DNA from: Candidatus Giovannonibacteria bacterium
GTDB lineage: Bacteria; Patescibacteriota; Minisyncoccia; JACPKW01; UBA11713
Direction: 5' to 3'
Assembly (NCBI GenBank): GCA_016186825.1
Contig: JACPKW010000001.1
Location: 13,508 to 77,507 of the forward strand
Length of the DNA: 64,000 nt
Both the position numbers and the translations under genes were made by a program. Numbering within the stretch: position 1 is the stretch's first letter; each line of letters opens with the position of its first letter. Positions 2,219 through 61,954 of this stretch are shown in pieces. Below the pieces are notes generated by a model. The model had not been told where the DNA came from and made no database searches. It worked only from the letters and a program-made list of their open reading frames with translations.

Positions 2219-2260
2219 CACGGTACCATCTTGGTGCGATCGCACCAAGATGGTACCGTG
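2219..2260. repeat. perfect 42-bp palindrome CACGGTACCATCTTGGTGCGATCGCACCAAGATGGTACCGTG, a member of the GGTACC/CGATCG palindrome family
   Basis: Read directly: the first 21 nt are the exact reverse complement of the last 21 nt. It sits between the end of the VOC gene and the start of the MBL gene, with a T-run upstream. Confidence 0.85.
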
Positions 2261-20137: not shown

Positions 20138-20728
20138 TTATTTCTTGCGAACTTCCAGCCAATCCGGAACAGGAATAAAAGTAATTTCATTCCAAGCATC
20201 AATTTCTTCTTCTGAAACATTGTAATATGCCTGATAAGCAGTCTCTACACTGCCATGAATAGCATCAGTCCACTCAAGATTTAATTTCTTTGCAATTTCC
20301 TTCAGCGACATTTCATTTTTAGCTTCCAACTCCACGAATGTCGGTATCCACGGCCAAGTATCAATCGTAACCTCGACACCCTCAAAATCCCATCTCTCGC
20401 GTTTTGTCTCCTGATACGACTTATTTTCTAAACCAATTGCCTTTAAAAAATTAGAAATTTTATCGAAGTCTTCAATAATTAATGAAATTTCTTTTGTTCC
20501 TTCCAGGGTTCTGTCAAATAATTGCTTATACGCCAGAGTCACTTTATCACCTTCATCCCTTACTCTTATCCAGCCCCCAATCTTCTCAAGTCTTCGATCT
20601 GGAAAATCAAAATTTTTTCTCCTCATTAACCGTTCCGAGTGAATTAAGACTGCTCCGCTTTTTTTGAGAATATTGCGAAGATCACGAGTGTTGATATTTA
20701 AAAATTTAGCTTCAATCTCAACTTCCAT
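20138..20728 (-). CDS. CYTH-domain protein (CyaB/ThTPase-like triphosphate tunnel metalloenzyme)
   Basis: 196 aa. The N-terminal EIEAKFL matches the CYTH ExExK signature, followed by acidic beta-strand motifs. Confidence 0.6.
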   Translation of the reverse strand: MEVEIEAKFLNINTRDLRNILKKSGAVLIHSERLMRRKNFDFPDRRLEKIGGWIRVRDEGDKVTLAYKQLFDRTLEGTKEISLIIEDFDKISNFLKAIGLENKSYQETKRERWDFEGVEVTIDTWPWIPTFVELEAKNEMSLKEIAKKLNLEWTDAIHGSVETAYQAYYNVSEEEIDAWNEITFIPVPDWLEVRKK

Positions 20729-20774: not shown

Positions 20775-20873
20775 ATGTGGAGTATTCTGAAAATAGTTCG
20801 AACGCATTTTGCTGCCTGTGGCCGCGAGGAAAGCCCCCCGCGAAATTCCGAAATCACGGCTCCGCTGCGCCAA
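20775..20873 (+). repeat. GC-rich repeat A, copy 1
   Basis: About 99 bp that is roughly 93% identical to the reverse complement of 21889-21987, aligned by eye (ATGTGGAGTATTCTGAAAATAGTTCGAACGCATTTTGCTGCCTGTGGCCGCGAGGAAAGCCCCCCGCGAAATTCCGAAATC...). Confidence 0.8.
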
Positions 20874-20951
20874 TGACAATTTTCCGCAGGAGGCGGATCT
20901 GCCTCCGGCATGACAAGTTTTTTTAGCGGCATTGCTCTTTAAAAATCAAGA

Positions 20952-21812
20952 CTATTTAATCTCTATTTTCCCCTCACCTGATAATGGAATAACAATACTT
21001 ATCGATATGAGCTTCTTTTGCCCCGACATGAGCTCGTCGTGATATAAATTATTAGAGTTAGAATAGGTCTTCTTGGTTTTCTCTTCGGTATAAATGACTA
21101 GGACATCTAGATTTGCATTGTGTTTTGCTGAAACCTCTAGAGTATAAGTTCCTAGTAAAGGATTTAAAATCTCTACCGATTGAGATCCTGGGCTAAAACC
21201 TGCATTTGGTATTTCTTCTACCAAAACGCCATCCTTATGACCCGTACGTCGTCCAGACGGATCAATCACTACCACATCTGACACGAGGGAATCGAGAACA
21301 CTTATACTTAATCCGGTTTGACCAACATCAATTTTTGACTGCAACAAACTTAAACTGCGAATCGTTTTTACTTCGAAAATCTTGCCACCTCTTTTTAAAA
21401 GTAAAGTTACCTCTGTTCCAACGTCTCCTTTTATATGTTTAGTATATTCAGCAACCGTCAATTTGATATACTTTTTATCACTATCTATTACTGCTATGAT
21501 TTCATCACCAGCTTTTATACCACTTTTTTCTGCTGGAGAATTAGAAAGAACAGAATCCACAAAAACTCGGTTATTTTCTGAACTCCGTAATGCCACGCCA
21601 ATTCCTACCTCATTTTTTAATTCAGATTTATTTCCAGTTATTCTTTCATTCTGCTCTGATGGAGGCGGCTGTTGCGATGGCGAGGTATTTGTAGGTTTGA
21701 TTTTATCCTCAGACGCCATCTTTTTGTTCGAATAAAAATACCACGCCGTACTTGCGGTAATAATAACAATTAAAATTACAAAAGCTATATTTATAAATCC
21801 TCTTTGAATCAT
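20952..21812 (-). CDS. secreted PDZ-domain protein
   Basis: 286 aa. N-terminal TM, Pro/Gln-rich linker, then a PDZ-like segment GIGVALRSSENNRVFVDSVLSNSPAEKSGIKAGDEIIAV. Confidence 0.6.
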   Translation of the reverse strand: MIQRGFINIAFVILIVIITASTAWYFYSNKKMASEDKIKPTNTSPSQQPPPSEQNERITGNKSELKNEVGIGVALRSSENNRVFVDSVLSNSPAEKSGIKAGDEIIAVIDSDKKYIKLTVAEYTKHIKGDVGTEVTLLLKRGGKIFEVKTIRSLSLLQSKIDVGQTGLSISVLDSLVSDVVVIDPSGRRTGHKDGVLVEEIPNAGFSPGSQSVEILNPLLGTYTLEVSAKHNANLDVLVIYTEEKTKKTYSNSNNLYHDELMSGQKKLISISIVIPLSGEGKIEIK

Positions 21813-21888
21813 ATGATTAAAAATTTTCTTTTCCCAAAATTAAAATGCAGTTCGAGCCGATATTTTTACAGGTTCTTTGGCAGTTTTT

Positions 21889-21987
21889 ATCGGCGCGGCG
21901 AAGCCGCGATTTCGGAATTTCGCGGGGGGCTTCCTCGCGGCCACAGGCAGCAAAATGCGTTCGAACTATTTTCAGAATACTCCACAT
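21889..21987 (-). repeat. GC-rich repeat A, copy 2 (inverted)
   Basis: Reverse complement matches 20775-20873. Together the two copies bracket the PDZ gene. Confidence 0.8.
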
Positions 21988-21992
21988 TTTAG

Positions 21993-22070
21993 AAAAACAA
22001 ATCCACAGGTTTTCCGCCGCCTTCGGCGGCGGCCAAATCGTATGGTTTTGGGGGCGAAAAAATCCGGCGG
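21993..22070 (+). repeat. GC-rich repeat B, copy 1
   Basis: About 78 bp containing the hairpin CGCCGCC-TTCG-GGCGGCG. It matches the reverse complement of 24137-24215 almost exactly. Confidence 0.8.
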
Positions 22071-22826
22071 CTAGGTCTTTCTAAAGAAAACTGGAATAAT
22101 GCGGGGCGAATCTTCTTTTTTGAAATGGCTATCTAGATTGTAATCGCCATAGATCTCTAAATTCCATTCTACACCAAAATATTCTTTTAGCCTCTCAATC
22201 TCGACATACTGCCCATTTTCAGCGTCTTCGATAGTTTCGCTTTTTCCAGTTTTCTTATCAAAAATTTCATAAACAAATTTTGTCTTTTTCAAGTTGTCAT
22301 CAGTCAGCTCCCAATCTCGGATAACTTTCATTTTGTAATCGTCATTTTCTCCCAAATAAGTTTTATGAAATTTTTGATTATATCTATAAAAATTTGCTTC
22401 GTCTAAAATAACAATTTTCTTAATGTGTGTTTTCTGCCAATCGTAGAAGTTTCTTCTGCCTTCCTCCGAAAAAATATAGGATAAAGTTGACCACATACAA
22501 ATGGCGGCGTTGTATTCTTGATTTATATTTATGGTCTCAAACTGTCCATGAATGACTTTTAAATCGGGATAATTTTTCTTGGCGATCGAAAGTGCTTTTT
22601 CTGACTGGTCGAATAAAGTTACGTCATATCCAGCTTTTAGAAGTAATCCAGAATGAAGGCCAACGCCGCCGCCCAAATCAATTACTTTTTCTATTTTTTC
22701 GGAATATTTTTTGAAAATATCAATGACAAAATTTGTTTCCTCTCTTTCGTGTCCAACTTTTCCAAGAGTTGTTTCGCGCCACAAGGGAAATAATTCAGCC
22801 AAATTTTCATAAATTTTCGTTTTCAT
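22071..22826 (-). CDS. class I SAM-dependent methyltransferase
   Basis: 251 aa. Motif I VIDLGGGVGLHSGLLLKAGYDVTLFD and a post-I acidic residue. Confidence 0.75.
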   Translation of the reverse strand: MKTKIYENLAELFPLWRETTLGKVGHEREETNFVIDIFKKYSEKIEKVIDLGGGVGLHSGLLLKAGYDVTLFDQSEKALSIAKKNYPDLKVIHGQFETININQEYNAAICMWSTLSYIFSEEGRRNFYDWQKTHIKKIVILDEANFYRYNQKFHKTYLGENDDYKMKVIRDWELTDDNLKKTKFVYEIFDKKTGKSETIEDAENGQYVEIERLKEYFGVEWNLEIYGDYNLDSHFKKEDSPRIIPVFFRKT

Positions 22827-22831
22827 AAATT

Positions 22832-23845
22832 TCAGCCAATTTTTGTCAAAACCTCCAACAGCTTCTCTGTATATTGTTTTGATCCGATTGAAATACGCAT
22901 AAATTCTTCGGAAACAAATTTTGAAATCAAAAAATTCATTTTGTCTAATTCTTGTTCCAAAATAGGTTTTGCTGTTTTTTCTACTTTCACTAAAACAAAG
23001 TTTGCTTTTGAATCAAAGGCTTTAAAATTCTTAGATTTGTTGACCTCGGCAACAAAATTTTGCCTATCAGAAATAACCTCACTTGAAAGTTTTTCATAGT
23101 ATTCATCTGATTCAAGTGCGGCAATCGCAATTTCTTCTAAAAGTCGGCTACCGCCCAAGTAAAAATTTTGATAGCGTAAAATCTCTTTCACTTTTTTGCC
23201 GCACAATGCAAATCCAATTCGCAAACCAGCGAGCGCATAAAGTTTAGAAAAACTCCTTAAAATCATTAAATTATCATGTTTTTCCAGCAAAGCTATAAAA
23301 TCTTGCTGATTATATTTTTCGTCAAATCCAAAATAAGCTTCGTCCAAAACAACGAGAGTTGCTTTGTCGGCTTTATTCAATATCTTTTGCAAATCAGCAA
23401 GATTTGTTGAATTTCCTGTCGGATTGTTTGGCGAAGTGATTAAAACCAATTTTGGCTTTAATTCACCAACTTTTCTAAGGCAATCATCAATATCAAAAGT
23501 AAAATCGTTCTGATTTTCTATGAGTCTAAAATTTTCCAACTTTATCTTCTTAAAATCAAGATATTTGTCGTAATAAGTGTAATGAAATTCATGAGTGAGA
23601 ACAATATCATTATCTGGTTTCAAACTGTCAAAAATAGTTCTAAAAATATCTTCTAATCCATAACCAATAATGATTTGATCTTCCGGTAATTGGAAAATTT
23701 TAGACAATTTTGGAATTAAGGTCGAACCAAAATAGCCTTCAAAATACAAAGCTATATGTTCAGAGGAGAAATTTCTTGAAGTCTCCAAAACTTTTGGCGA
23801 TGGCCCTTGTATTACCTCATTTCGATTTAGTAGTTTTTTGTCCAT
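22832..23845 (-). CDS. PLP-dependent aminotransferase class I/II (HisC-like)
   Basis: 337 aa. LVLITSPNNPTGN, VVLDEAYFGF and SFSKLYALAGLRIGF, the PLP-lysine motif. Confidence 0.75.
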   Translation of the reverse strand: MDKKLLNRNEVIQGPSPKVLETSRNFSSEHIALYFEGYFGSTLIPKLSKIFQLPEDQIIIGYGLEDIFRTIFDSLKPDNDIVLTHEFHYTYYDKYLDFKKIKLENFRLIENQNDFTFDIDDCLRKVGELKPKLVLITSPNNPTGNSTNLADLQKILNKADKATLVVLDEAYFGFDEKYNQQDFIALLEKHDNLMILRSFSKLYALAGLRIGFALCGKKVKEILRYQNFYLGGSRLLEEIAIAALESDEYYEKLSSEVISDRQNFVAEVNKSKNFKAFDSKANFVLVKVEKTAKPILEQELDKMNFLISKFVSEEFMRISIGSKQYTEKLLEVLTKIG

Positions 23846-23847
23846 AA

Positions 23848-24069
23848 TTACTTCAGTAATTCATTAGCCGATACGCCCAGCGCATTAGCTATTTTAGCAA
23901 CTGTCGCAAGGGTGGGGTTTTTCTTCCCATTCTCAATATTGCTGATATAGCCCCTATCAACATCTAAAGCTCGCGCAATATCGCCTTGCGACATCTTCTT
24001 TTTAGCTCTAATGCGCTTCATGTTGTTTCCAAATTGTGCAGAGATTTTGTCCATATTTGAGATATTCAC
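23848..24069 (-). CDS. XRE-family helix-turn-helix transcriptional regulator
   Basis: 73 aa. MSQGDIARALDVDRGYISNIENGKKNPTLATVAKIANALGV is a canonical Cro/C1 HTH. Confidence 0.75.
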   Translation of the reverse strand: MNISNMDKISAQFGNNMKRIRAKKKMSQGDIARALDVDRGYISNIENGKKNPTLATVAKIANALGVSANELLK

Positions 24070-24136
24070 ATTTTAACACTTTGTTATATTGTTGGACAAT
24101 GTTATACTAAAATACACTATGGTATTTTTTGATTTT

Positions 24137-24215
24137 GCCGCCGGATTTTTTCGCCCCCAAAACCATACGATTTGGCCGCCGCCGAAGGCGGCGGAAGGCC
24201 TGTGGATTTGTCTTT
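24137..24215 (-). repeat. GC-rich repeat B, copy 2 (inverted)
   Basis: Reverse complement matches 21993-22070. It ends about 10 nt from the 3' end of tRNA-Ala. Confidence 0.8.
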
Positions 24216-24225
24216 TTCTAAAATG

Positions 24226-24296
24226 TGGACCCGGGGAGAATCGAACTCCCGCCTACCGGATGCAAACCGGTCGTTTTGCCACTTAACTACGGGCCC
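24226..24296 (-). tRNA. tRNA-Ala (anticodon UGC)
   Basis: The reverse complement starts GGGCCCG with a G3-U70 wobble pair, the Ala identity element. Anticodon loop TTTGCAT (anticodon UGC), T-arm GGGAG-TTCGATT-CTCCC, discriminator A. Confidence 0.8.
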
Positions 24297-24354: not shown

Positions 24355-24412
24355 CCTCTTGGCGCCATCTTTGGGCGATCGTGAACAAATGACGCCAAGA
24401 TGGTAAATGCTA
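24355..24412. repeat. degenerate member of the GGTACC/CGATCG palindrome family
   Basis: CGCCATCTTTGGGCGATCG...GACGCCAAGATGGTA retains the CCATCTTGG/CCAAGATGG arms and the CGATCG core. Confidence 0.5.
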
Positions 24413-25276: not shown

Positions 25277-26059
25277 TCAAACTAAGGCGCGCCAATTTTC
25301 TTCGATAATTCGCATTATAAGATTACCCACAAGCAGCGACAACAATAAATAATCGACCTGCTTGGGGCCTTTGAACGCAAAAATTACCGCAAAGGCTCCC
25401 ACAATAATTCCATATAACACCCTGTTCCGGGTTGGGCGAAAAGATGACGTCATGGGTTCAATGAGCATTACGGTAACAAAAAATAAAACTGTCCCATCTA
25501 AAATGATGTTTCGGAATAAAAAAACCGTATTTTCGAAGCTAAATTTTTGGAAATAATTAGAAATCGCAAATAAACCCATATAAGTTAGCAAAAATGCAAT
25601 TGCCGTTTCAAATCGCCTCTGCCTCCACAGTATGAATATTCCACCCGCGAGCATAATCCAAGTTGTAAAGTATGCAAAATTGGCGCCCCACCAAGTGAGA
25701 ACAAATGGACTAAATAAGGAAAGAACGACAAGCGAAAAAGCTGCAGGGTTAAAAATATGTCGCCCATTGAATTTGATTATTTGCTTCGAAAAAACCGCCA
25801 AAAGGGGCAGCAATATAATAAAACGATAATCCTGCGCCAAAGGACCAACTAATGACAAGATTAGACCCGAGATAAGCGAGCTTTCTGGCATATACCAGAT
25901 GCGATCCCGAAAATAAGTCCAGATCAAATCGAAAAATGAATATAAAAGAACTATTGCAATAGCGTTCAAAAAAATCGCCGCATTGCCATGGAATATTGCG
26001 CCCAAAACCAAAAGCACTGCGAGATATAAAACCATGAAATGTTTAATATTGATTTTCAT
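25277..26059 (-). CDS. polytopic membrane protein, weakly NqrB/RnfD-like
   Basis: 260 aa with about 8 TM. GRHIFNPAAF resembles the FNPALVGR block of RnfD/NqrB. The family assignment is tentative. Its start overlaps the stop of the upstream Ddl gene. Confidence 0.55.
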   Translation of the reverse strand: MKINIKHFMVLYLAVLLVLGAIFHGNAAIFLNAIAIVLLYSFFDLIWTYFRDRIWYMPESSLISGLILSLVGPLAQDYRFIILLPLLAVFSKQIIKFNGRHIFNPAAFSLVVLSLFSPFVLTWWGANFAYFTTWIMLAGGIFILWRQRRFETAIAFLLTYMGLFAISNYFQKFSFENTVFLFRNIILDGTVLFFVTVMLIEPMTSSFRPTRNRVLYGIIVGAFAVIFAFKGPKQVDYLLLSLLVGNLIMRIIEENWRALV

Positions 26060-27129
26060 TAAAGCGGCCCTATTTTTTTAGCATGCGCTTCGATGCCAAG
26101 CGCAATTATTTTATCAAGAAAATCCGCGGGGTTCATCCCCACTTCCGCGGCCTGATGGAATACCATTGTTGAAGGAGTTATGCCCGGCAAAGTATTCGGT
26201 TCAAGCACAACAATTTCTCCGTCTTCTTTCACAAACATGTCAATTCTCGGATACCCGATTAAATTTAATTCATCGCATACTTTAATTGCGATTTCCTGCG
26301 CGCGCGCCGTTAACTCCAGAGAAAGCCTTGCAGGCGTGATCATTTCAGCTCCTCCGGGCAAAAATTTATCCTGCAGCGTTAGATATCCCAAATTTTTACT
26401 CCATGGCGTTTCTGTTATCGGGAGAGCAATTCGACTCGCGCGATTGCCTAATACAGAAATAGTAATTTCCATCCCCGTAATTTTTTCCTCGACTAAAATT
26501 CTCCGATCCCAGTGAAAAGCCGCCGAAAATGCCTGCGGGAGATCCTCTGCTTTCGCCACAATCCCAATCGCTGTTGAACACCCCTCGCGTGACGGCTTTA
26601 CAACAACCGGAAAGCCTAGATAGTCCTCAATACGCCTTGCCGCAATTTCCGGACGTTCGCGCCATTCATCTTCAAATAGAGCGAGGTGCTTTGGAGTTTT
26701 AATCCCCGCATTATCCAATATTTTTCTTTGAATATATTTTTCCGAACCAAGTGCGCTTCCTAAAATTCCGGGGCCGTTATAAGGAATTTTCTGAAGCTCG
26801 AGCAGTCCTTGCAGGCATCCATCCTCCATAAATTTTCCATGCCCGATAATAAATGCAAAATCAATCTGTGATTTCAACTCTTCATAAAAAATTCTCTCCC
26901 CTTTGGTTGCAAGCAGCCTTTCGATATCGGAAGTTGTATTTTGCAACAGCAAGAACTCCGGAATTTTCCAAATCCGATGTTTTGAGTCCATGAAAATAGC
27001 GAAAATATCATACTTGGATGTATCGATTTTCTGAAAAACATTGCGTCCGCCTTCGAGCGATACTTCTTTTTCAGAAGATGATCCGCCGAAAATTATCCCG
27101 ACTTTAACTTTTTTTGCCGCATCGGTCAT
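26059..27129 (-). CDS. ddl: D-alanine--D-alanine ligase family (ATP-grasp), paralog 1
   Basis: 356 aa. N-terminal GIIFGGSSSEKEVSL, ATP-grasp core, C-terminal EPNTLPGIT. Confidence 0.8.
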   Translation of the reverse strand: MTDAAKKVKVGIIFGGSSSEKEVSLEGGRNVFQKIDTSKYDIFAIFMDSKHRIWKIPEFLLLQNTTSDIERLLATKGERIFYEELKSQIDFAFIIGHGKFMEDGCLQGLLELQKIPYNGPGILGSALGSEKYIQRKILDNAGIKTPKHLALFEDEWRERPEIAARRIEDYLGFPVVVKPSREGCSTAIGIVAKAEDLPQAFSAAFHWDRRILVEEKITGMEITISVLGNRASRIALPITETPWSKNLGYLTLQDKFLPGGAEMITPARLSLELTARAQEIAIKVCDELNLIGYPRIDMFVKEDGEIVVLEPNTLPGITPSTMVFHQAAEVGMNPADFLDKIIALGIEAHAKKIGPL

Positions 27130-28196
27130 AGCGGTCCTTTTTTACCTTGATGCGCTTCCATGCCTAATTCGATGAGCTTCGTTATGAAATCTTTGGGACC
27201 AAGCCCCGCAAGCGATGCCTGATGAAAAGTCCAAGATGAAGGACCGAGACCTGTGGAAGCGCCGGAATTCGGATCCGTTATCAACACCTCGCCTGAATCC
27301 AAAACAAAGCCGTCTATCCGGGCAAAAGTTTTCGCCTCCAAGGCCTTATACGCGGCTATTGCTTGGCGCTGAATTTCCTTAATTACACTTTCATCAATTT
27401 CCATCGGCGTAACTTTCTCCGATCCGCCCGGCAAATACTTATGGTCATATGTAAAAATTTCGTCGTTATGTATAGTTTCTGTCGGCAAAAATGCGGCCGG
27501 TTCCTTGTTTCCCATTACAACGCAAGAAAACTCCCGCCCCATTAAATACTTTTCAATTAGCGCTGAAGGGTCAAAACGAAAAGCTTCAGCCATTGCGGGA
27601 TCAAAGTCTCCCTTAGCTTTAACAAGTTTCACTCCGAGAGTGGAACCCTCGCGCGAAGGTTTGGTGACAAGCGGGAAACCGAATTTTTTTTCTAGGCTCG
27701 AAGCAATTTCACTTTTCGAACGCTCCCAATCCTCTTTGTAAATAACTTCACCTTCTGGAATATTGATATTATCTGGCGAAAATTTTAAAAGTTTTCTCTG
27801 CATCGGCTTATCCATTCCGAGCGCCGCAGACAAAACACCAGATCCGCTGTAAGGAATACCGAGCAATTCGAGCAGACCCTGAATACATCCATCATCACCA
27901 TATTTGCCATGCGTTGTGAGCAAGGCAAATTCAATTTCTTTGGCAAGGCCTTCATATGAAATAGGGATCGCCGCTTTTGCCTCAAGATTTTCTTCGATTT
28001 CCTTGCATGTATTTCTGATTACAAGCGCTTCCGGAATTTTCCAGAATTTTGCTTCACGCGAAAAATATATCGCCACAGGCTCAAAAAATACTCGATCCAT
28101 GAGCTGATATGCCTGTCTGCCAGAAGCTAAAGAAACTTCCCGCTCTTCAGAAAGACCCCCAAAGATAACTCCAACTTTTAACTTGCTTTTCTCCAT
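27126..28196 (-). CDS. D-alanine--D-alanine ligase family (ATP-grasp), paralog 2
   Basis: 356 aa. VGVIFGGLSEEREVSL...DPNSGAS. Overlaps paralog 1 by 4 nt. Confidence 0.8.
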   Translation of the reverse strand: MEKSKLKVGVIFGGLSEEREVSLASGRQAYQLMDRVFFEPVAIYFSREAKFWKIPEALVIRNTCKEIEENLEAKAAIPISYEGLAKEIEFALLTTHGKYGDDGCIQGLLELLGIPYSGSGVLSAALGMDKPMQRKLLKFSPDNINIPEGEVIYKEDWERSKSEIASSLEKKFGFPLVTKPSREGSTLGVKLVKAKGDFDPAMAEAFRFDPSALIEKYLMGREFSCVVMGNKEPAAFLPTETIHNDEIFTYDHKYLPGGSEKVTPMEIDESVIKEIQRQAIAAYKALEAKTFARIDGFVLDSGEVLITDPNSGASTGLGPSSWTFHQASLAGLGPKDFITKLIELGMEAHQGKKGPL

Positions 28197-28199
28197 TGA

Positions 28200-29126
28200 T
28201 TATTTTCGAGCTTCTGAAATTAAATGCTCCAATAGTCCTTTGAAAGAAAGTCCGGCAACATTCGCCGCCTCCGGATAACAGGCCTCCGGAGTCAATTTCG
28301 GAAGAGCATTCGCTTTGTTAATATAAATCCCGCGTTTTGATAATGTGAATTCTGTGCGCGAATAATGCCTGCACCCCAAAGCCTGATGCGCAACTATTGA
28401 CGATTCTTTAATTTTATCCGTCGTGGCCTTGTCAAAACGTCCCGGACAAATCATCCCTCCTCTTTTCGGATCGCAAATTTCAACAACCGGCAGCGCGTAA
28501 TATTTTTGTCCATGAAAATTTTCAAGCACTCCGCCTGAAGCGACCCTTCCATCCAAGTTTTCTTCAATTAATGCTTCTTTGCAGTCAGGAGTCTCAAATA
28601 TTTTATCCAAAGCTCTAACAATTTCAGGCTCGCTCTTTGCTAAAATTTGCAAGGCTGAATTTGCTTGCGCTGGCTTGATTACCCACCAAGGGAAAAGCGT
28701 CTCGCGCGCCGTTGATACCATTTTTTTTCGATCGCTAAGCCGTGAGACAACCACAGCGTGGGGAACTTTCAAGCCATGGCTTTCAAAAATCTTTCTCGAA
28801 ATTATTTTATTGCCCGCGGCGGCGGCAGAAACCGCATCCGAGCCGGTAACAGGCAGCCCCAGCGTTTTAAAGCTTTGCTCGGCTTTTTTATACCCCTTGA
28901 GTCTGCCATGCAAGGCATTAAAAACAACATCAATTTTATGAGCTAGTTTTTCAGGCGGCAAGGGGAATCCATCCAAATGCCAAATTCCGTCCTTAGTCCA
29001 AAGAATGTCTTTCAATTCATACTTATTACGCGGCAAATATTTCAAAGCATTCGCCCCGGATTGGAGCGAAGCTTCGAATTCCGAATATGGTCCTCCGCGA
29101 AGCACTCCGACCCTTATCTTAGCCAT
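28200..29126 (-). CDS. D-alanine--D-alanine ligase family (ATP-grasp), shorter paralog 3
   Basis: 308 aa. VGVLRGGPYSEFEASL N-terminal domain and ATP-grasp C-terminal half. 4-nt gap to paralog 2. Confidence 0.7.
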   Translation of the reverse strand: MAKIRVGVLRGGPYSEFEASLQSGANALKYLPRNKYELKDILWTKDGIWHLDGFPLPPEKLAHKIDVVFNALHGRLKGYKKAEQSFKTLGLPVTGSDAVSAAAAGNKIISRKIFESHGLKVPHAVVVSRLSDRKKMVSTARETLFPWWVIKPAQANSALQILAKSEPEIVRALDKIFETPDCKEALIEENLDGRVASGGVLENFHGQKYYALPVVEICDPKRGGMICPGRFDKATTDKIKESSIVAHQALGCRHYSRTEFTLSKRGIYINKANALPKLTPEACYPEAANVAGLSFKGLLEHLISEARK

Positions 29127-31450: not shown

Positions 31451-32289
31451 ATTATCTTCTAGAAACTTAGAATTGATGTTCCCACGTAGTGTGCGGATTT
31501 CCCGCGCTACGCGAGCTCTAATGCATTGATGCTTTTATTTTATAGAGCTTAGCTAACCCCTGCTTGTTAAGATGTTGGCCGTTTTTTATCCTCAACATCA
31601 GATCACAGAATATCTCAAAGTCTCTTTTCTTTGATTTAAGCTGCAACTGATGAGTTTTAAAAAACGGAATAATGACATCTTCAAGATCCTTTCTATTGGA
31701 TACTTCATAGCGATAACAATTCTGGTGATTCTTACGTGTATCTTTCTGAAAATACACCTCGCCGCAACCGAAAAATTTTTTTAGCCTAAAGAGAATTTCA
31801 GAGTCTCTCTCAATAAGCTTTAAATAAAATTTCGGTTCAGCTCTAACCCATCTTTTTACATTTTTTGTAAATTCAGGGTTTTTAATGTAGGCGGTAAAAC
31901 TACCCTCGCCATCAACTAGTCCAATAATATATTCGGCATTAAGCATATTTAGAGTGGATCCTTTCCGGTTCTAGCCGGTACTATGATCCAGCTGACTTCT
32001 GACGCTGCGTAAGTTTCATTATATCTTATCTTGCGACAAAATAGCAGCGTCAGATCTCCACAGGTCATTTTATTTTCTATTCCAAGCATCCGAATTGGCC
32101 TTATTATGATCTTCCCTGCCCTCACCGCCAATTGCAGGTCGAACTGCCATTTATATATCGGCTGCTTTTTGCTTCCAGATCCTTCGCTTGCCGCTTCACA
32201 GCGGCAAACTATCTTTCGGCTATGCTCTTTGACGAGAAGAGAAATGGATTTTAACCATTCAGAAAATAAAACTGCTGCGCGCTTTTATT
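31451..32289 (-). mobile_element. intron-like insertion 1 in the 16S gene (near E. coli position 1391) carrying a LAGLIDADG ORF
   Basis: The 16S sequence stops after ...CTTGTACTCAC and resumes CGCCCGTCACG 839 bp later. Conserved rRNA flanks are intact on both sides. Confidence 0.65.
31518..31946 (-). CDS. LAGLIDADG homing endonuclease (single-motif)
   Basis: 142 aa. The N-terminal IIGLVDGEGSF is the LAGLIDADG motif. Encoded inside the 16S insertion on the same strand as the rRNA. Confidence 0.75.
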   Translation of the reverse strand: MLNAEYIIGLVDGEGSFTAYIKNPEFTKNVKRWVRAEPKFYLKLIERDSEILFRLKKFFGCGEVYFQKDTRKNHQNCYRYEVSNRKDLEDVIIPFFKTHQLQLKSKKRDFEIFCDLMLRIKNGQHLNKQGLAKLYKIKASMH

Positions 32290-32714
32290 GTGAGTACAAG
32301 ACTCGAGAACGTATTCACCGCGGCATAGCTGATCCGCGATTACTAGCGATTCCAGCTTCATGAGGTCGAGTTTCAGACCTCAATCCGAACTGAGCTCACC
32401 TTTGATGAGATTGGCTCCGCCTTACGGCATCGCGACCCATTGTAGTGAGCATTGTAGCATGTGTGTAGCCCAGGGCATCAGAGGGTCATGCTGACCTGGC
32501 GTCATCCCCGCCTTCCTCCCCCTATACGGAGGCAGTCTCGTCTGACACTTATAACAGACGATAAGGGTTGCGTTCGTTACCCCACTTAAGGGAACAGCTC
32601 AAGCCACGAACTGACGACGGCCATGCAACACCTGTGTAAGCGTCCTTGTGAGACATTTTTTCTTTCGAAAAAATTTCGCTTACATTTCAAGCCCTGGTGA
32701 GGTTCTTCGTTTAC

Positions 32715-32749
<35 letters not shown>

Positions 32750-32896
32750 AGTCCCCGTCTATTCCTTTGAGTTTTAATCTTGCGATCGTACTTCCCAGGC
32801 GGCAGGCTTAACGCGTTAGCTTACGGCTCCCGAAGGGTCGATACTTCGGATGCCTAGCCTGCATCGTTTAGGGCGTGGACTACAAGGGTATCTACA

Positions 32897-33593
32897 AATT
32901 TGTTGCTAACAACAAATTTGAAATTTTCAATTTTACAATTTCCAATTTTCAAAATGTTGTAGGGCAAGACATTTCTGCTTGTCTCTCTGCATCGCTGCAG
33001 AGTTCAGACTATATCATACGAGCACTTTGAGAAGCGGACGTCGTTAGACATCCGGACTTCAAAGTGCTCGCCTCGGCGTATAGTCGTTGAGGGGAATTAG
33101 ACTGGGATAAAACGACTCACCTCATAAAGGTTTCTGCCAATAACTCGATCTCCGCCAGCTTCGATGTTCTTGATAAATTCAGCCAAATCCGCTTTCGCAA
33201 GATCGTCGGACTCCTGTTCGATGCATTCAACTATGCTGCGGTTCTTGTTTTCTATATCAAGTATAGCGAGATAGTTCATTTTCTACTCCTTTCTTAATTC
33301 TTCCCTGCTGGTTATCCGCACCAAAACATTTTTACTCTTGCAAGTAGTTTTGGATACACCGGACTTTCCAGCATATAGCTCCCGCCTCGGCTCACGCCTC
33401 GACGGGATTCTCAATTTTGCAGCCAACATGCGTTGGGCAAAATTGGAACAAGTTTTTTATCCTCGTCCGCCAGTTAGCGGATTCGAGGGGACTAGTTTTC
33501 CGCCGATACCCTCGGCGGCCACTGCACAGCAGTAAAATCTCCAATTTGAAAATTGAAAATTGTAAATTGAAAATTTCGCTGCCATGCAGCGGG
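32897..33593 (-). mobile_element. intron-like insertion 2 in the 16S gene (within the GGATTA|GATACCC block, near E. coli position 788)
   Basis: About 697 bp interrupt a universally conserved block. The insertion termini carry complementary AT-rich repeats (AAATTTGAAATTTTCAATTTTACAATTTCC at 32921-32950 and GAAAATTGAAAATTGTAAATTGAAAATTTC at 33549-33578) that could pair the intron ends. Confidence 0.55.
33097..33279 (-). CDS. small acidic ORF inside 16S insertion 2, preceded by a strong SD
   Basis: 60 aa. The minus-strand upstream sequence reads GAATTAAGAAAGGAGTAGAAA-ATG, so the SD AAAGGAG lies 6 nt from the start. No recognised motif. Confidence 0.35.
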   Translation of the reverse strand: MNYLAILDIENKNRSIVECIEQESDDLAKADLAEFIKNIEAGGDRVIGRNLYEVSRFIPV

Positions 33594-33920
33594 TTAATCC
33601 TTTTTGATCCCCACGCTTTCGTGTTTCAGGGTCAGGAATGCCCCAGCAAATTGCCTTCGCCTTTGGTGTTCCCCTAGATATCAACGGATTTCACCCCTAC
33701 ACCTAGAGTTCCATTTGCCTCTGGCACCCTCCGAGCTCGGCCGTTTCCCCGCCAGCTTCAGGGTTGAGCCCTGAAATTTAAACGGAGACTAACCGTGCCC
33801 CCTACACACCCTTTACGCCCAATAAATCCGGATAACGCTCGGGCTCCTCGTCTTACCGCGGCTGCTGGCACGAGGTTAGCAAGCCCTTATTCCTGCGGTA
33901 CCGTCAGAGTTAGAGCTGTG

Positions 33921-34148
33921 AAGAGACAAGTTTTTTTCCTTTCTACTTGCCTCGTATTTTCCTTATTGGATAAGGACTATTGAAAATATATTTGGGGTTG
34001 TCATTTTTGATTCTTATGAATCTCCCAGGGACTTCATCTGATGTTGCTTCAAATTCTTTTGTAACTCTTTCCCCGGTTTTTTGATTTACCCCGCGCACTA
34101 TATACAAATAGCGCTGATATTCTCTATTTAACATTTTAAATATCTCCT
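33921..34148 (-). other. insertion of about 228 nt in the loop of the 16S V3 hairpin (helix 17), intervening-sequence-like
   Basis: Complementary stems GAGTTAGAGCTGTG (33907-33920) and CACAGCTCCAACTC (34149-34162) flank about 228 nt where E. coli has about 35 nt. Confidence 0.5.
33943..34134 (-). CDS. small basic ORF (63 aa) inside the 16S V3 insertion, preceded by an SD
   Basis: MLNREYQRYLYIVRGVNQKTGERVTKEFEATSDEVPGRFIRIKNDNPKYIFNSPYPIRKIRGK. The upstream minus-strand sequence is GTGAGGAGATATTT-ATG (GGAG 7 nt from the start). The longer ORF-track version (to 34299) runs into conserved rRNA and is rejected. Confidence 0.35.
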   Translation of the reverse strand: MLNREYQRYLYIVRGVNQKTGERVTKEFEATSDEVPGRFIRIKNDNPKYIFNSPYPIRKIRGK

Positions 34149-34626
34149 CACAGCTCCAACTCTTCTTCTCGCAGAAAAGCGGTTTACGCTCCGAAGAGCT
34201 TCTTCCCGCACGCGGCGTCGCTCGATCAGGCTTTCGCCCATTGTCGAATGTTCTTGACTGCAGCCACCCGTAGGTGTATGGACCGTGTCGCAGTTCCATT
34301 GGTGGGGATCAAGCTCTCACTTCCCCTAGCCGTCATAGCCTTGGTAGGCCATTACCCTACCAACAAGCTGATAGCCCGCAGGCCTTTCCCAGAGCCTATC
34401 GCTAGATTTACTCGGCACCTTCCAAACTTCGTGTAATTCGCTCGACACAAAGTCTCGAAGGTGCCGAGACTATCGGGAATTAGCTAACCTTTCGGCTAGT
34501 TATGCCCGTCTCTGGGGTAAGTTCCTACGTGTTACTACCCCGTCTGCCACTGAACATCTAAATCCGTCGCATTGATATAATCTCAACTCCTTCAAAAGAT
34601 GTTCCGTTCGACTTGCATGCCTTATC

Positions 34627-34666
<40 letters not shown>

Positions 34667-35068
34667 TTTGAATTGCTCACGCATTGCGCGAGCAAATTTT
34701 GAACGGGACAAAAGAGAGTAGTTATAACTTTCTTTTGTCACAAACTTTTCACCCGCTTAAGTATTGTCTTAAACAATTCCTTGCGGGTTGTGTGTCCCGA
34801 TTTTGCTTCTGCAAAGCAGAAATGCAAAATCGAGGATCCCCGATTTTCATTTATGAAAATCGGGACATGTTTTTGATATTCTTTTTTCAACGTTCTGTCG
34901 ATCTGAATATTCTCTGTAAACAAACCCGCAACTGCCTTCACATAAAAACAGTTGCGGACTTGTTTATTTTTCAAATAAATTTTTAGGGCTGTTTACATAA
35001 GTTTTCGAATTAATTCTAAGTCCAATGTCCATTATATGGTTCCTGCAAAGCTTGTCAACCGGCCGATT

Positions 35069-42597: not shown

Positions 42598-42723
42598 ATG
42601 ATTTTGGATCTGTTGATGCAGACCCTTCTTTGCCCCGAAATTTATTTCGGGATAAAGAAGGATCCGGAAGGAGAGCGCATGCACCCGCATGACTCTTCCT
42701 TCCGGAATTACGCGTCACTCGTT

Positions 42724-46042: not shown

Positions 46043-46735
46043 TCACTCCCAGCCCTGCGCTTTTAGGCCGATTTCCGCCGCCTGCTGTTGCGCTTCCTGT
46101 TTGGACGGCCCCTCGCCTTCCCCGATTAACTTTTCTCCAATATAGACGCCCACCACGAAATGTTTGTTGTGATCGGGCCCCCATTCTTTCAGCACCTCAT
46201 ATGTCGGGGTAACGCCCGATATTTCCTGCGCGCGTTCCTGAAACAAGCTTTTTGCGTCACGGAATAATTTTTTTTCTAAGACTTCCTGCATCTTCGTAAG
46301 CAAGCTTTTTTCTATAAAATCCTTGGATACTTCGTAGCCCTGATCAAGATAAATTGCCCCGATTAAAGCCTCGAAAGCATTCGCAAGAATATACTGCCGC
46401 GCGCGCCCGACGTCTTTCGCCTCGCCGCGCGAAAGCAAAATAAAATCATTCATTCCAAGCTCGCGCGCAACTTCAGAAAGCATATTAGCGTTTACCAAGG
46501 CCGCGCGAAAGCTTGTGAGCTCGCCCTCGGGCTTATCGGGGAAAATTTTATAAAGATGCTCGGTCACAATTAATTCTAAAACAGCGTCCCCCAAAAATTC
46601 GAGTCGCTCATTTTGCCCCACATCCCATGACGGATTCTCGTTCAAATACGAACGATGCGTGAATGCCTCTTTCAAAAGCCTCGCATCTTTAAATTTAAAA
46701 TTAATTTTTTCTTCAAACTCCGACAAATCTTTCAT
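46043..46735 (-). CDS. rnc: ribonuclease III
   Basis: 230 aa. The RNase III signature ERLEFLGDAVLELIV, plus a C-terminal dsRBD. Confidence 0.85.
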   Translation of the reverse strand: MKDLSEFEEKINFKFKDARLLKEAFTHRSYLNENPSWDVGQNERLEFLGDAVLELIVTEHLYKIFPDKPEGELTSFRAALVNANMLSEVARELGMNDFILLSRGEAKDVGRARQYILANAFEALIGAIYLDQGYEVSKDFIEKSLLTKMQEVLEKKLFRDAKSLFQERAQEISGVTPTYEVLKEWGPDHNKHFVVGVYIGEKLIGEGEGPSKQEAQQQAAEIGLKAQGWE

Positions 46736-49288: not shown

Positions 49289-49294
49289 TATAAA

Positions 49295-49317
49295 TGTTGA
49301 ACATCCAATGTTCAACA
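49295..49317. repeat. REP-like palindrome TGTTGAACAT-CCA-ATGTTCAACA (5' copy at the transposase start)
   Basis: Perfect 10-bp arms, immediately upstream of or overlapping the start region. Confidence 0.85.
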
Positions 49318-61307: not shown

Positions 61308-61350
61308 AATGGTACCATCTCCCCACGATCGCCCCAAGATGGTACCATTA
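61308..61350. repeat. palindrome AATGGTACCATCT-CCCCACGATCGCCCCA-AGATGGTACCATT immediately upstream of the 61356 gene
   Basis: 13-bp perfect inverted arms around a CGATCG core. It ends 5 nt before the start codon. Confidence 0.85.
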
Positions 61351-61916: not shown

Positions 61917-61954
61917 AGGTACCATCTTGGGGCGATCGCACCAAGATGGTACCT
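61917..61954. repeat. palindrome AGGTACCATCTTGG-GGCGATCGCA-CCAAGATGGTACCT, 19 nt downstream of the 61356-61898 gene
   Basis: 14-bp inverted arms around CGATCG, with one mismatch in the spacer. Confidence 0.85.

What the first reader, a model, noticed from the sequence alone, without database searches (positions are those of the whole stretch)
20775..24296. Two families of about 80-100-bp GC-rich inverted repeats delimit a PDZ-gene segment and an XRE/aminotransferase/methyltransferase cassette abutting tRNA-Ala
Repeat A (20775-20873) and its inverted copy (21889-21987) bracket the PDZ protein gene. Repeat B (21993-22070), which lies immediately adjacent to the A copy, and its inverted copy (24137-24215) bracket a three-gene, translationally coupled cassette (XRE HTH 23848-24069, HisC-like aminotransferase, class I SAM methyltransferase). 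The distal B copy ends about 10 nt from the 3' end of tRNA-Ala, a classical integration hotspot. Both repeats are much more GC-rich than the surrounding DNA and contain strong internal hairpins (for example CGCCGCC-TTCG-GGCGGCG). The layout A, gene, A', B, cassette, B', tRNA resembles non-autonomous elements with long terminal inverted repeats carrying cargo. It could also be invertible segments: A/A' recombination would flip the PDZ gene and B/B' would flip the cassette. No integrase or transposase lies inside. The candidate recombinases are the Y1 transposase at 48608 or an enzyme encoded elsewhere.
Basis: seen in the sequence. Interest (0 to 1): 0.7.

Follow-up and report, generated by a model that had tools for sequence, protein, structure and literature searches.

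The report
Recombinase-less integrated element beside tRNA-Ala
The two repeat families are halves of one roughly 190-base recombination site, a fossil of the 3' end of a large serine recombinase gene, and its three copies mark a 3.45-kb two-module insertion next to tRNA-Ala in a candidate-phyla-radiation bacterium that no longer carries the enzyme.

Summary
The repeats are real: A/A' are about 105 nt and B/B' about 91-93 nt. Independent assemblies break at them or reproduce copy-specific variants. B is longer than reported. A and B overlap in a 7-nt junction, ATGTGGA/TCCACAT, at 20775, 21981 and 24223. The last copy includes the final 4 nt of tRNA-Ala.

Read across that junction, B-heptamer-A' is collinear with the 3' end of a large serine recombinase (LSR) gene beside a homologous aminotransferase cassette in another genome (score 37 against 11.0±1.9 in shuffles). 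The heptamer falls where flanks change in three other lineages.

The window therefore holds one intact site and two hybrid sites (CYTH flank-site, site-tRNA). This is the attP × attB → attL + attR pattern. Relatives have tRNA-Ala 79 nt, or two genes, upstream of CYTH.

My reading is a 3.45-kb integrated LSR element that has lost its recombinase. It carries two modules, each bounded by inverted half-sites. Aminotransferase cassettes with long inverted arms recur in at least four other CPR lineages.

I found no inversion, excision or empty-site variant, and no recombinase in the window. There was no Rfam match, no target-site duplication and no MITE signature. I rate it a new variant of a known kind, of moderate interest.

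The parts
20138..20728 (-). CYTH-domain gene, the conserved left flank of the insertion
   Evidence: Pfam CYTH, E 1e-11. In relatives at 77-78% identity, tRNA-Ala lies 79 nt (L169) or two small genes (L166) upstream of this gene.
20775..20781 (+). Junction heptamer ATGTGGA, site 1. A hybrid site: CYTH-side flank, core, A arm (attL/attR-like).
   Evidence: A/A' identity stops exactly here.
20775..20879 (+). Repeat A. The heptamer-proximal part resembles the last 15 codons of the recombinase gene (X2). The rest is GC-rich.
   Evidence: Weaker similarity to the outer ends of the arms in L010 and the P0008 lineage.
20889..20906 (.). GGAGGC-GGATCT-GCCTCC hairpin between the PDZ stop codon and A
   Evidence: Read from the sequence. 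Present in the folds.
20952..21812 (-). PDZ-domain membrane protein gene, the cargo of module 1. An orphan at sequence level.
   Evidence: Pfam PDZ_2/PDZ. No homologue at E<=1e-10 other than itself. Promoter-like site at 21837-21808 inside the module.
21884..21987 (-). Repeat A', the inverted copy of A
21981..21987 (-). Junction heptamer (TCCACAT on the + strand), site 2. The intact site, B-core-A' (attP-like).
   Evidence: It aligns on the point where flanks change in L172, the P0008 lineage and L010.
21981..22071 (+). Repeat B, a fossil of about the last 38 codons of a large serine recombinase gene upstream of the crossover (X1). Includes the CCGCCGCC-TTCG-GGCGGCGG hairpin.
   Evidence: score 37 against 11.0±1.9, 0 of 2000 shuffles.
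22071..22826 (-). Class I SAM methyltransferase gene (cargo of module 2). Its stop codon overlaps the inner end of B by 1 nt.
   Evidence: Pfam Methyltransf_25. 84% identical to the L004 protein.
22832..23845 (-). HisC-like class I/II aminotransferase gene (cargo of module 2)
   Evidence: Pfam Aminotran_1_2, E 2e-41. Below the NCBIfam hisC cut-off. Homologues at 57-80% identity are flanked by long inverted repeats in L004, L010, L172 and L174-L181.
23848..24069 (-). Small XRE/HTH_3 regulator resembling restriction-modification control (C) proteins
   Evidence: Pfam HTH_3, E 1e-18. PADLOC Control_protein, 69.5 bits.
24070..24099 (-). Promoter-like site (TTGTCC, 18 nt, TG-TAAAAT) between B' and the regulator gene
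   Evidence: A consensus match only.
24137..24229 (-). Repeat B', the inverted copy of B. Copy-specific variants: an AG insertion, and CC where B has TT.
   Evidence: Linked to tRNA-Ala in all Logan contigs read.
24223..24229 (+). Junction heptamer ATGTGGA, site 3. A hybrid site: B'-core-tRNA-Ala. It contains the last 4 nt of the tRNA.
24225..24296 (-). tRNA-Ala(UGC), the right flank and target of the insertion
   Evidence: ARAGORN. Rfam tRNA, 68 bits.

Best explanation
Positions 20775-24229 are a 3.45-kb horizontally acquired element. It was integrated by conservative site-specific recombination at the 3' end of tRNA-Ala(UGC), between that tRNA and the CYTH gene.

Its recombination site is the roughly 190-nt unit B-heptamer-A'. 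This unit descends from the 3' end of a large serine recombinase (LSR) gene, and the crossover core (ATGTGGA) lies about 15 codons before the stop codon.

The element carried two inverted copies of this site.
- One copy is intact (21884-22071).
- The other recombined with the tRNA-Ala/CYTH junction and is now split. Its halves are CYTH flank-core-A (20775) and B'-core-tRNA (24229).

As a result, each of the two cargo segments is bounded by inverted copies of one half of the site. The segments are the PDZ gene and the regulator-aminotransferase-methyltransferase operon.

The recombinase gene itself is gone from this copy, so the element is non-autonomous and probably fixed. If a matching recombinase were supplied, the geometry would allow either segment to be inverted and the whole element to be excised.

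Status of each step:
- Shown: the repeats, the shared core, the homology to an LSR gene end, the coincidence of junction points, the recurrence of arm-flanked cassettes, and tRNA-Ala lying next to CYTH in relatives.
- Inferred: the circular intermediate, the order of events, loss of the recombinase, and any present activity.
For: 1. A' and B overlap by 7 nt. The same heptamer bounds A and B' and includes the tRNA's last 4 nt.

2. B-heptamer-A' aligns with the LSR gene's 3' end in L172 across the junction. The score is 37 against 11.0±1.9, with 0 of 2000 shuffles reaching it. The B' side alone scores 34 against 10.0±1.8. The reverse strand gives nothing.

3. The L172 flank gene is an LSR. It matches Pfam Recombinase and Zn_ribbon_recom above their cut-offs and phrog_95 integrase at E 5e-37. 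Its last roughly 47 nt lie inside the inverted arm.

4. L010 has a Resolvase N-terminal domain gene beside its 203-nt arms.

5. In the P0008 lineage, two different flanks (F1, F2) and the L172 LSR gene all diverge at TGG|TGTCTC. L010's arms end within 3 nt of the same point. The window heptamer aligns on it.

6. The junction inventory fits attP × attB → attL + attR. There is one intact X1-J-X2 site, one flank-J-X2 site and one X1-J-tRNA site.

7. In relatives, tRNA-Ala sits 79 nt upstream of CYTH (L169-L171), or with two other genes in between (L166). The tRNA-CYTH interval is therefore variable, and here it holds 3.45 kb.

8. The PDZ gene has no homologue. The aminotransferase and methyltransferase DNA is 82.6% identical to that of a MAG labelled Magasanikbacteria.

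9. Across 1.55 Mb of fetched loci, long high-identity inverted repeats around 1-3-kb segments occur only at these aminotransferase cassettes.
Against: - No recombinase gene was found in the window among about 30 ORFs scanned, nor by tblastn with the LSR fragments.
- The identity shared with the tRNA is only 7 nt. There is no dyad symmetry around the core above background.
- No empty site, circle junction or inverted form was seen in 6 contigs from the CYTH side and 7 from the tRNA side.
- The 'empty site' relatives are only 77-78% identical in CYTH. One of them uses a different tRNA-Ala isoacceptor (CGC).
- An element carrying two inverted copies of its own attachment site is unusual for LSR elements.
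- Relative to the crossover, the aminotransferase cassette sits on the opposite side from its position in L172, the P0008 lineage and L010. This requires extra rearrangement steps that I cannot reconstruct.
- The homology of the A part to the other arms is weaker (13-18 against 8-9±1.6; 2-9 of 1000 shuffles).
Confidence: 0.5

Rival explanations
1. The two segments are active invertible (phase-variable) segments. A recombinase encoded elsewhere flips the PDZ segment (sites 1 and 2) and the cassette (sites 2 and 3). The long arms are kept alike by repeated flipping and gene conversion.
For: - The core copies alternate in orientation.
- In L172 and L010 a serine recombinase gene sits just outside the arms, as gin and cin do.
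- Arms are 91-100% identical within each element but diverged between lineages. L172 and P0008-lineage arms are 78-88% identical while each pair is 100% identical. This implies concerted evolution.
- In the P0008 lineage the aminotransferase start is joined to two different outer flanks in different samples.
Against: - All seven contigs from the tRNA side (four distinct places examined) link the tRNA to the B'-type variant, with no branch.
- The P0008-lineage observation is not decisive. The repeat (367 nt) exceeds the assembler's k, so the joins may be graph ambiguity.
- Both modules have promoter-like sites inside the repeats, so orientation would not obviously change expression.
- There is no recombinase in the window.
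- A/A' and B/B' here are less alike (88-97%) than arms elsewhere, which suggests decay.
Confidence: 0.2
2. This is neutral structural debris. The inverted repeats arose by inverted duplication or microhomology-mediated rearrangement of a decayed recombinase gene end. They persist through RecA gene conversion, with no site-specific event at the tRNA.
For: - A 7-nt identity is within the range of microhomology.
- No recombinase is present.
- There is no dyad symmetry at the core.
- The arms are partly degenerate.
Against: - Both reciprocal junctions are retained, each with a precise copy of the core. The breakpoint coincides with the flank-switch point of three other lineages. Random breakage would not repeat this.
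- Arm-flanked cassettes recur in at least four other lineages.
Confidence: 0.15
3. The function is at the RNA level. In read-through transcripts the arms pair into long stems. These would be RNase III processing or insulation signals around each operon, or each repeat would be a structured RNA.
For: - All genes are co-oriented downstream of tRNA-Ala.
- An RNase III gene lies in the window (46043-46735).
- GC-rich hairpins sit at equivalent positions in the arms of all lineages. Their stems differ while a G-rich loop is conserved in four lineages.
Against: - No Rfam family matches, at gathering threshold or at E<=10.
- Single-copy folds are no better than shuffles (z = -1.4 to +0.2).
- The B/B' differences give C·A mismatches in the sense transcript.
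- A promoter-like site lies between B' and the operon, so the main transcript would lack the 5' arm.
- The arms are explained by homology to a coding sequence.
Confidence: 0.08
4. These are two members each of dispersed MITE/REP-like repeat families that happen to lie near each other, or composite transposons bounded by such repeats. Alternatively, it is an assembly artefact.
For: - The repeats are short, GC-rich and intergenic.
- Another palindromic repeat family is present in the window.
- A Y1_Tnp-like gene lies at 48608-49315.
Against: - There are only two copies of each repeat in 64 kb.
- The copies have no inverted termini of their own, and there are no target-site duplications.
- The precise 7-nt overlap and the link to an LSR gene end are not explained.
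- Independent assemblies reproduce the junctions and the copy-specific variants.
Confidence: 0.05

Closest known systems
Integrative elements of large serine recombinases (SCCmec/Ccr, Tn4451/TnpX, XisF- and SpoIVCA-type excision elements, phiC31-type prophages)
   Same: - Conservative recombination with only a short identical core at the junctions.
- The integrase gene lies next to, or overlaps, the attachment site in the relatives L172 and L010.
- Hybrid left and right sites flank the insert.
- The LSR fragment matches phrog_95 integrase and, partially, XisF/CcrB/CcrC models.
   Different: - This copy has no recombinase.
- The element keeps a second, inverted, intact copy of the site.
- The repeats around the core are 90-370 nt, not about 50 nt.
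- No imperfect dyad was found at the core.
- The target is a tRNA 3' end, with 7 nt of identity.
Acinetobacter dif (pdif) modules (XerC/XerD); PMC13141974, PMC6449649
   Same: - Gene modules without their own recombinase, bounded by inversely oriented recombination sites.
- Neighbouring modules share one site, so site orientation alternates.
- The same module is found in different contexts.
   Different: - dif modules use 28-bp XerC-spacer-XerD sites and tyrosine recombinases on plasmids.
- Here the shared site is a 7-nt core within 90-105-nt arms derived from a serine recombinase gene end, and it is chromosomal.
- No Xer-like dyad is present.
Invertible segments with an adjacent serine invertase (Mu G/Gin, P1 C/Cin with 0.6-kb inverted repeats, e14 P/Pin, PinQ; PMC12529663)
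   Same: - A segment of 1-3 kb is flanked by inverted repeats.
- A serine recombinase gene lies just outside them (L172, L010).
- The crossover site lies inside a coding sequence.
   Different: - The enzyme is a large serine recombinase, not a roughly 190-aa invertase.
- The gene crossed by the site is the recombinase's own.
- The cargo is metabolic or regulatory, not tail-fibre variants.
- Inversion has not been observed here.
Yeast 2-micron plasmid (FLP/FRT)
   Same: The inferred circular form has two long inverted repeats. These divide the circle into two unique segments, and recombination sites lie inside the repeats.
   Different: - This is an architectural analogy only, recalled from general knowledge.
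- The 2-micron plasmid uses a tyrosine recombinase, is eukaryotic and is a replicating plasmid.
MITE- or IS-bounded composite transposons
   Same: Two inverted copies of a non-coding repeat flank cargo that lacks a transposase.
   Different: - The repeat copies have no inverted termini of their own.
- There are no target-site duplications.
- No dispersed copies occur in 64 kb.

Membership tests
Site-specific integrative element at a tRNA 3' end | An insert lies between a tRNA gene and a neighbour that is adjacent to the tRNA in related genomes | tested here: met
   L169-L171 have tRNA-Ala(CGC) 79 nt upstream of CYTH. L166 has tRNA-Ala(UGC), two genes, then CYTH. The relatives are only 77-78% identical in CYTH.
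Site-specific integrative element at a tRNA 3' end | A direct repeat of the tRNA 3' end at the far border | tested here: met
   ATGTGGA occurs at 20775-20781 and 24223-24229. It is only 7 nt long, and 4 of these lie in the tRNA.
Site-specific integrative element at a tRNA 3' end | An integrase gene inside the element | tested here: not met
   The four genes inside are PDZ, XRE, aminotransferase and methyltransferase. tblastn with the LSR fragments finds nothing in the window.
Site-specific integrative element at a tRNA 3' end | Excised circle or empty site present in the population | tested here: inconclusive
   6 contigs from the CYTH side and 7 from the tRNA side all show the occupied state. 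Raw reads cannot be searched with these tools.
Large serine recombinase attachment site | The site is contiguous with, or overlaps, an LSR gene, and flanks switch at a fixed short core | tested here: met
   Met by homology. B-heptamer-A' is collinear with the L172 LSR 3' end. Flank-switch points coincide in L172, the P0008 lineage and L010.
Large serine recombinase attachment site | A site of about 40-50 bp with imperfect dyad symmetry around a central dinucleotide | tested here: not met
   The best dyad at site 2 is 10 of 20 matches, equal to the background mean of 10.4±1.4.
Large serine recombinase attachment site | Recombination by the cognate enzyme | not testable with these tools
   Needs an in vivo or in vitro assay.
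Invertible DNA segment (inverton, Gin/Hin type) | Inverted repeats flank the segment | tested here: met
Invertible DNA segment (inverton, Gin/Hin type) | Both orientations coexist | tested here: inconclusive
   Only one linkage is seen in the window's organism. The two flanks seen in the P0008 lineage are ambiguous, because the repeat is longer than the assembler's k.
Invertible DNA segment (inverton, Gin/Hin type) | Orientation changes expression (promoter or gene part outside the segment) | tested here: not met
   Promoter-like sites lie inside both segments. These are consensus matches only.
Invertible DNA segment (inverton, Gin/Hin type) | Recombinase gene adjacent to the segment | tested here: not met
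   Not present in the window. Present in L172 and L010.
dif/pdif modules | 28-bp XerC-spacer-XerD sites at the module borders | tested here: not met
   No dyad at the shared junction. No tyrosine recombinase among the ORFs scanned.
dif/pdif modules | Alternating site orientation, with neighbouring modules sharing a site | tested here: met
   The three core copies are oriented +, -, +.
MITE / composite transposon | Target-site duplication and terminal inverted repeats on each repeat copy | tested here: not met
   The flanks differ: GAGCC|A...A'|TTTAG, and L010 has AAATT|...|CAGAT. The ends of A and of B are not inverted copies of each other.
MITE / composite transposon | Many dispersed copies | tested here: inconclusive
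   Two copies of each repeat in 64 kb. The rest of the genome could not be reached.
Known structured RNA (Rfam 15) | A covariance-model match | tested here: not met
   No hit on A or B at gathering threshold or at E<=10. No hit on L004, L010 or L172.

The most novel reading that the evidence does not exclude
A family of small elements exists in candidate-phyla-radiation bacteria with three linked properties.
- The crossover site of a large serine recombinase lies inside the recombinase's own 3' end.
- Long inverted arms, each carrying the gene's last roughly 15 codons, flank a cargo cassette.
- The cassette can therefore be flipped, exchanged or carried to new sites without destroying the enzyme.

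This would be a serine-recombinase counterpart of the Xer-dependent dif-module system. The window would then show an array of two such modules captured at a tRNA gene.
Probability: 0.3. Interest if true: 0.75.

Novelty: new variant of a known kind. Interest (0 to 1): 0.55.

Why it matters
Mobile DNA of candidate-phyla-radiation (CPR) bacteria is poorly charted, because their genomes are small, uncultured and assembled from short reads that break at repeats.

This locus and its relatives show a recognisable, searchable signature: a cassette between long inverted arms that end in a recombinase gene's last codons. This signature explains why many homologous contigs stop at about 2 kb. It also links a metabolic aminotransferase-methyltransferase cassette to horizontal movement between CPR lineages.

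If the recombinase and its roughly 190-nt site are active, two things follow. They would describe a module-shuffling mechanism not previously reported for serine recombinases. They would also provide a compact new integrase and site pair.

If the locus is only a fossil, it is still a clean example of how an integrated element decays into 'mysterious' inverted repeats.

Tried and rejected
- **Rfam.** I scanned the window at gathering threshold and at E<=10, and also three related loci. Only tRNAs and 16S rRNA were found.
- **Single-copy folds of A and B.** They are no better than shuffles.
- **blastn of the 3.6-kb region against plasmid and phage collections.** No match.
- **GTDB genome scan.** It gave L010 but not the source genome.
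- **Viral-contig scans.**
  - The conserved arm loop motif gave 7 unrelated high-GC phage hits, at about chance level.
  - The LSR fragment gave none.
- **Test for dyad symmetry at the heptamer.** At background level.
- **Heptamer enrichment in the window.** None.
- **Search for target-site duplications and for inverted termini within each repeat.** None found.
- **Test for inversion using copy-specific variants in independent contigs.** Only one state was seen.
- **Apparent two-orientation evidence in the P0008 lineage.** I rejected this as proof, because the 367-nt perfect repeat exceeds the assembler's k.
- **PADLOC.** The cassette is not a known defence system. Only the regulator resembles restriction-modification control proteins.
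- **Y1_Tnp protein at 48608-49315.** I considered it as the enzyme and set it aside. It is a weak match (E 8.5e-10), and the layout does not fit that family, whose known members (from general knowledge) use same-strand subterminal hairpins at their ends rather than inverted arms around a shared core.
- **Last aminotransferase look-up (P0027).** It gave a locus without repeats.

Full report
**1. The observation**

The window comes from a candidate-phyla-radiation (CPR) bacterium.
- Its 16S rRNA is 2.4 kb long with large insertions.
- The aminotransferase is identical to a protein of a 'Candidatus Giovannonibacteria' MAG on a 107,893-bp NCBI contig.

- A (20775-20879) and A' (21884-21987) are inverted copies.
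- B and B' are inverted copies, 96% identical.
- They are GC-rich islands of 0.49-0.60 in DNA of 0.25-0.40.
- Only two copies of each exist in the 64 kb.

They are not assembly artefacts.
- Independent Logan (k = 31) contigs of the same organism end exactly 30 nt into each identical stretch.
- Contigs from the tRNA side carry the B'-specific variants.

The gene calls hold: PDZ protein, XRE regulator, class I/II aminotransferase and class I methyltransferase.

**2. Corrections that change the picture**

Gapped alignment extends B outward to 21981 and B' to 24229. Three things follow.
- B' overlaps the last 4 nt of tRNA-Ala, rather than ending 10 nt away.
- A' and B overlap by seven bases, TCCACAT (21981-21987).
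- The complementary ATGTGGA is the first seven bases of A (20775-20781) and the last seven of B' (24223-24229).

The heptamer is not enriched in the window (4 found, 4.9 expected). Its meaning lies in its position. Two independent repeat boundaries overlapping by 7 nt has a chance of roughly 4^-7.

There are thus three copies of a short core in alternating orientation (+, -, +).
- Site 1 has the CYTH flank on one side and the A arm on the other.
- Site 2 has the A arm and the B arm.
- Site 3 has the B arm and the tRNA.

**3. Relatives of the flanks**

CYTH homologues at 77-78% identity sit just downstream of a tRNA-Ala gene.
- In L169-L171 the gap from tRNA-Ala(CGC) to the CYTH start codon is 79 nt.
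- In L166 the order is D-Ala-D-Ala ligase, tRNA-Ala(UGC), two small genes, CYTH.

The window has the same ligase-to-tRNA-Ala-to-CYTH order, but with 3.45 kb between tRNA and CYTH. The interval is therefore variable, and the window's content looks inserted.

The PDZ protein has no homologue at E<=1e-10 among 5.8 billion proteins.

**4. Relatives of the cassette**

The aminotransferase has many homologues at 57-80% identity, and a striking number lie on contigs of about 2 kb. Where flanks could be read, the cassette is again bracketed by long inverted repeats.

| Locus | Source | Cassette | Inverted repeat |
|---|---|---|---|
| L004 | MAG labelled Magasanikbacteria | AT 80%, MT 84% identical | at least 63 nt, 98%, cut by the contig end |
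| L010 | GTDB MAG | XRE + AT | 203 nt, 91% |
| L172 | JGI contig | AT-HAD-MT | at least 121 nt, 100% |
| L174-L181 (P0008 lineage) | eight samples | AT-HAD-MT | 367 nt, 100% |

In 1.55 Mb of fetched loci, such repeats occur only at these cassettes.

The arms of L010, L172 and the P0008 lineage are clearly homologous to each other (scores 41-58 against 12±2). Within an element the two arms are 91-100% identical. Between lineages they have diverged: L172 against P0008-lineage arms is 78-88% identical where the cassette is 91%. The arms therefore evolve in concert.

Each arm carries a GC-rich hairpin at an equivalent position. Four lineages have different stems but a conserved G-rich loop. The window has an 8-pair stem with a TTCG loop.

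The aminotransferase and methyltransferase DNA is 82.6% identical between the window and L004. That identity stops at the first and last codons.

**5. The recombinase**

- In L172 the gene abutting the arm is the C-terminal part of a large serine recombinase (LSR). It matches Pfam Recombinase and Zn_ribbon_recom above their cut-offs, phrog_95 integrase at E 5e-37, and XisF/Ccr models in part.
- Its last roughly 47 nt, including the stop codon, lie inside the arm.
- The same 15-17 codons sit at the outer end of both arms in the P0008 lineage. There the outer flanks (F1, F2) are not recombinase.
- In L010 the ORF next to the arms is a Resolvase N-terminal domain, cut by the contig start.
- F1, F2 and the L172 recombinase gene all diverge from the arm at TGG|TGTCTC. 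L010's arms end within 3 nt of the homologous point.

**6. The link to the window**

I read the window from the methyltransferase stop codon outward (B, heptamer, A'). This sequence is collinear with the L172 recombinase gene's 3' end, read in its sense strand across that junction.
- The local score is 37 against 11.0±1.9 in 2000 dinucleotide shuffles, and none reached it.
- B' plus heptamer alone scores 34 against 10.0±1.8.
- The opposite strand gives nothing.

The parts map as follows.
- B corresponds to about 38 codons upstream of the junction. Its translation, RIFSPPKPYDLAAAEGGGKPVDLFF*, compares with LIFSPKIPYDLVAERSEANQRNLTFPHW.
- The heptamer falls on the junction.
- The heptamer-proximal part of A corresponds, more weakly, to the last 15 codons.

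A and B are therefore two halves of one site, a fossil of a recombinase gene end that contains the crossover point.

**7. Mechanism**

Call the halves X1 (B side) and X2 (A side), and the core J.
- The window holds X1-J-X2 (site 2, intact), CYTH flank-J-X2 (site 1) and X1-J-tRNA (site 3).
- L172 holds X1-J-X2 within a live gene.
- The P0008 lineage and L010 hold flank-J-X2.

This is the inventory expected from conservative recombination of an attP-like site with an attB-like site at the tRNA-Ala/CYTH junction.

Sites 1 and 3 are direct repeats. The only single-step precursor is therefore a 3.45-kb circle carrying two inverted copies of the site, which separate the PDZ segment from the cassette. 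That step is inferred.

The recombinase gene is absent.
- About 30 ORFs were scanned.
- tblastn with the recombinase fragments was negative.

So the copy is non-autonomous and probably fixed. All contigs recovered from both sides show the occupied state, in a single orientation.

**8. Points that do not fit neatly**

- There is no dyad symmetry at the core.
- The identity with the tRNA is short.
- Relative to J, the aminotransferase cassette lies on the X1 side here but on the X2 side in L172, the P0008 lineage and L010. In the window the PDZ module occupies the position geometrically equivalent to their cassette. Further rearrangements must have occurred.
- I cannot say why the arms are so long. 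Keeping the recombinase reading frame intact in either orientation would explain only the outer roughly 50 nt.

**9. Rivals**

- **Active inversion is possible but unsupported.** Promoter-like sites lie inside both segments. The two-flank observation in the P0008 lineage can be a de Bruijn-graph ambiguity.
- **RNA-level roles lack support.** There is no Rfam hit and no excess folding stability. The differences between arms are uncompensated, giving C·A mismatches in the sense transcript.
- **MITE or composite-transposon readings fail.** There are no duplications, no inverted termini and too few copies.

**10. Comparison and verdict**

The closest known things are integrative elements of large serine recombinases and, in architecture, Acinetobacter dif modules and Gin/Cin invertible segments.

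The locus fails at least one defining test for each.
- It has no integrase inside.
- It has no Xer-type site.
- It shows no observed inversion.

I therefore file it as a new variant of a known kind rather than a member of any of these. Interest is moderate. This instance is likely a fossil, but it exposes a recurrent and previously undescribed arm-flanked cassette architecture tied to a serine recombinase in CPR bacteria.

Noticed in passing
window 2222-2257, 61311-61346, 61918-61953; degenerate copy about 24355-24405: A palindromic repeat family, GGTACCATCTTGG.GCGATCGC.CCAAGATGGTACC (36-43 nt, 86-97% alike), occurs in intergenic DNA. An interrupted, degenerate copy lies between the Rieske gene and tRNA-Ala. 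It looks REP-like and is unrelated to A and B.
   Followed up: partly
window 48608-49315 (-): A 235-aa ORF gives a weak Y1_Tnp (IS200-like) match covering residues 78-161 only (E 8.5e-10). It sits next to RNase HII. It could be a REP-associated (RAYT-like) enzyme linked to the palindromic repeats rather than an IS.
   Followed up: no
window 32243-34672 (-), 31518-31946 (-): The 16S rRNA gene is 2,430 nt long, with insertions of 243 nt, 37 nt and others. A LAGLIDADG endonuclease ORF lies just downstream. No 23S rRNA was detected in the window.
   Followed up: no
window 26059-29126 (-): Three tandem D-Ala-D-Ala ligase paralogues (356, 356 and 308 aa).
   Followed up: no
window 40616-40750 within ORF 40324-42690 (-): A GC-rich 9-15-nt periodic repeat (CCACCGCCGCCACC...) encodes a Gly-rich tract in a 788-aa protein.
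   Followed up: no
L010 455-506, L172 44-98, L174 731-789, L004 2150-2204: The arms of related cassettes carry a hairpin. Its 10-13-pair GC stem differs between lineages, while its 17-21-nt loop (GGAGGGGTCTGGGGAGGAA or GGGGGGTGTGGGGGG) is conserved. In L004 the loop has the opposite polarity. Its function is unknown. The loop's G-runs suggest, from inspection only, possible G-quadruplex formation.
   Followed up: partly
L004 2694-11358; L010 2160-6549: In two other genomes the arm-flanked cassette lies beside defence-type genes. L004 has AAA_14/DUF4143, an SNF2 helicase and N6_Mtase/Eco57I-like genes. L010 has DUF5655 and a 1,122-aa ORF that I read, from its sequence alone, as a type IIG-like restriction-modification protein (not checked against Pfam). 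These are variable-island contexts.
   Followed up: no
L174 465-500 and L172 2975-3015: The outer end of the arm, on the strand antisense to the recombinase's last codons, carries a near-consensus outward-facing promoter-like sequence, TTGAAA-16 nt-TGgTACAAT. This could be coincidence or could drive transcription into the flank.
   Followed up: no
L172, L174-L181; L173: The cassette content varies around the aminotransferase. It is AT-HAD phosphatase-MT in the 75-76% identity group. In L173 it is AT + amino-acid permease + SAM synthetase, without repeats. This hints at a SAM-linked small-molecule pathway rather than histidine biosynthesis.
   Followed up: no
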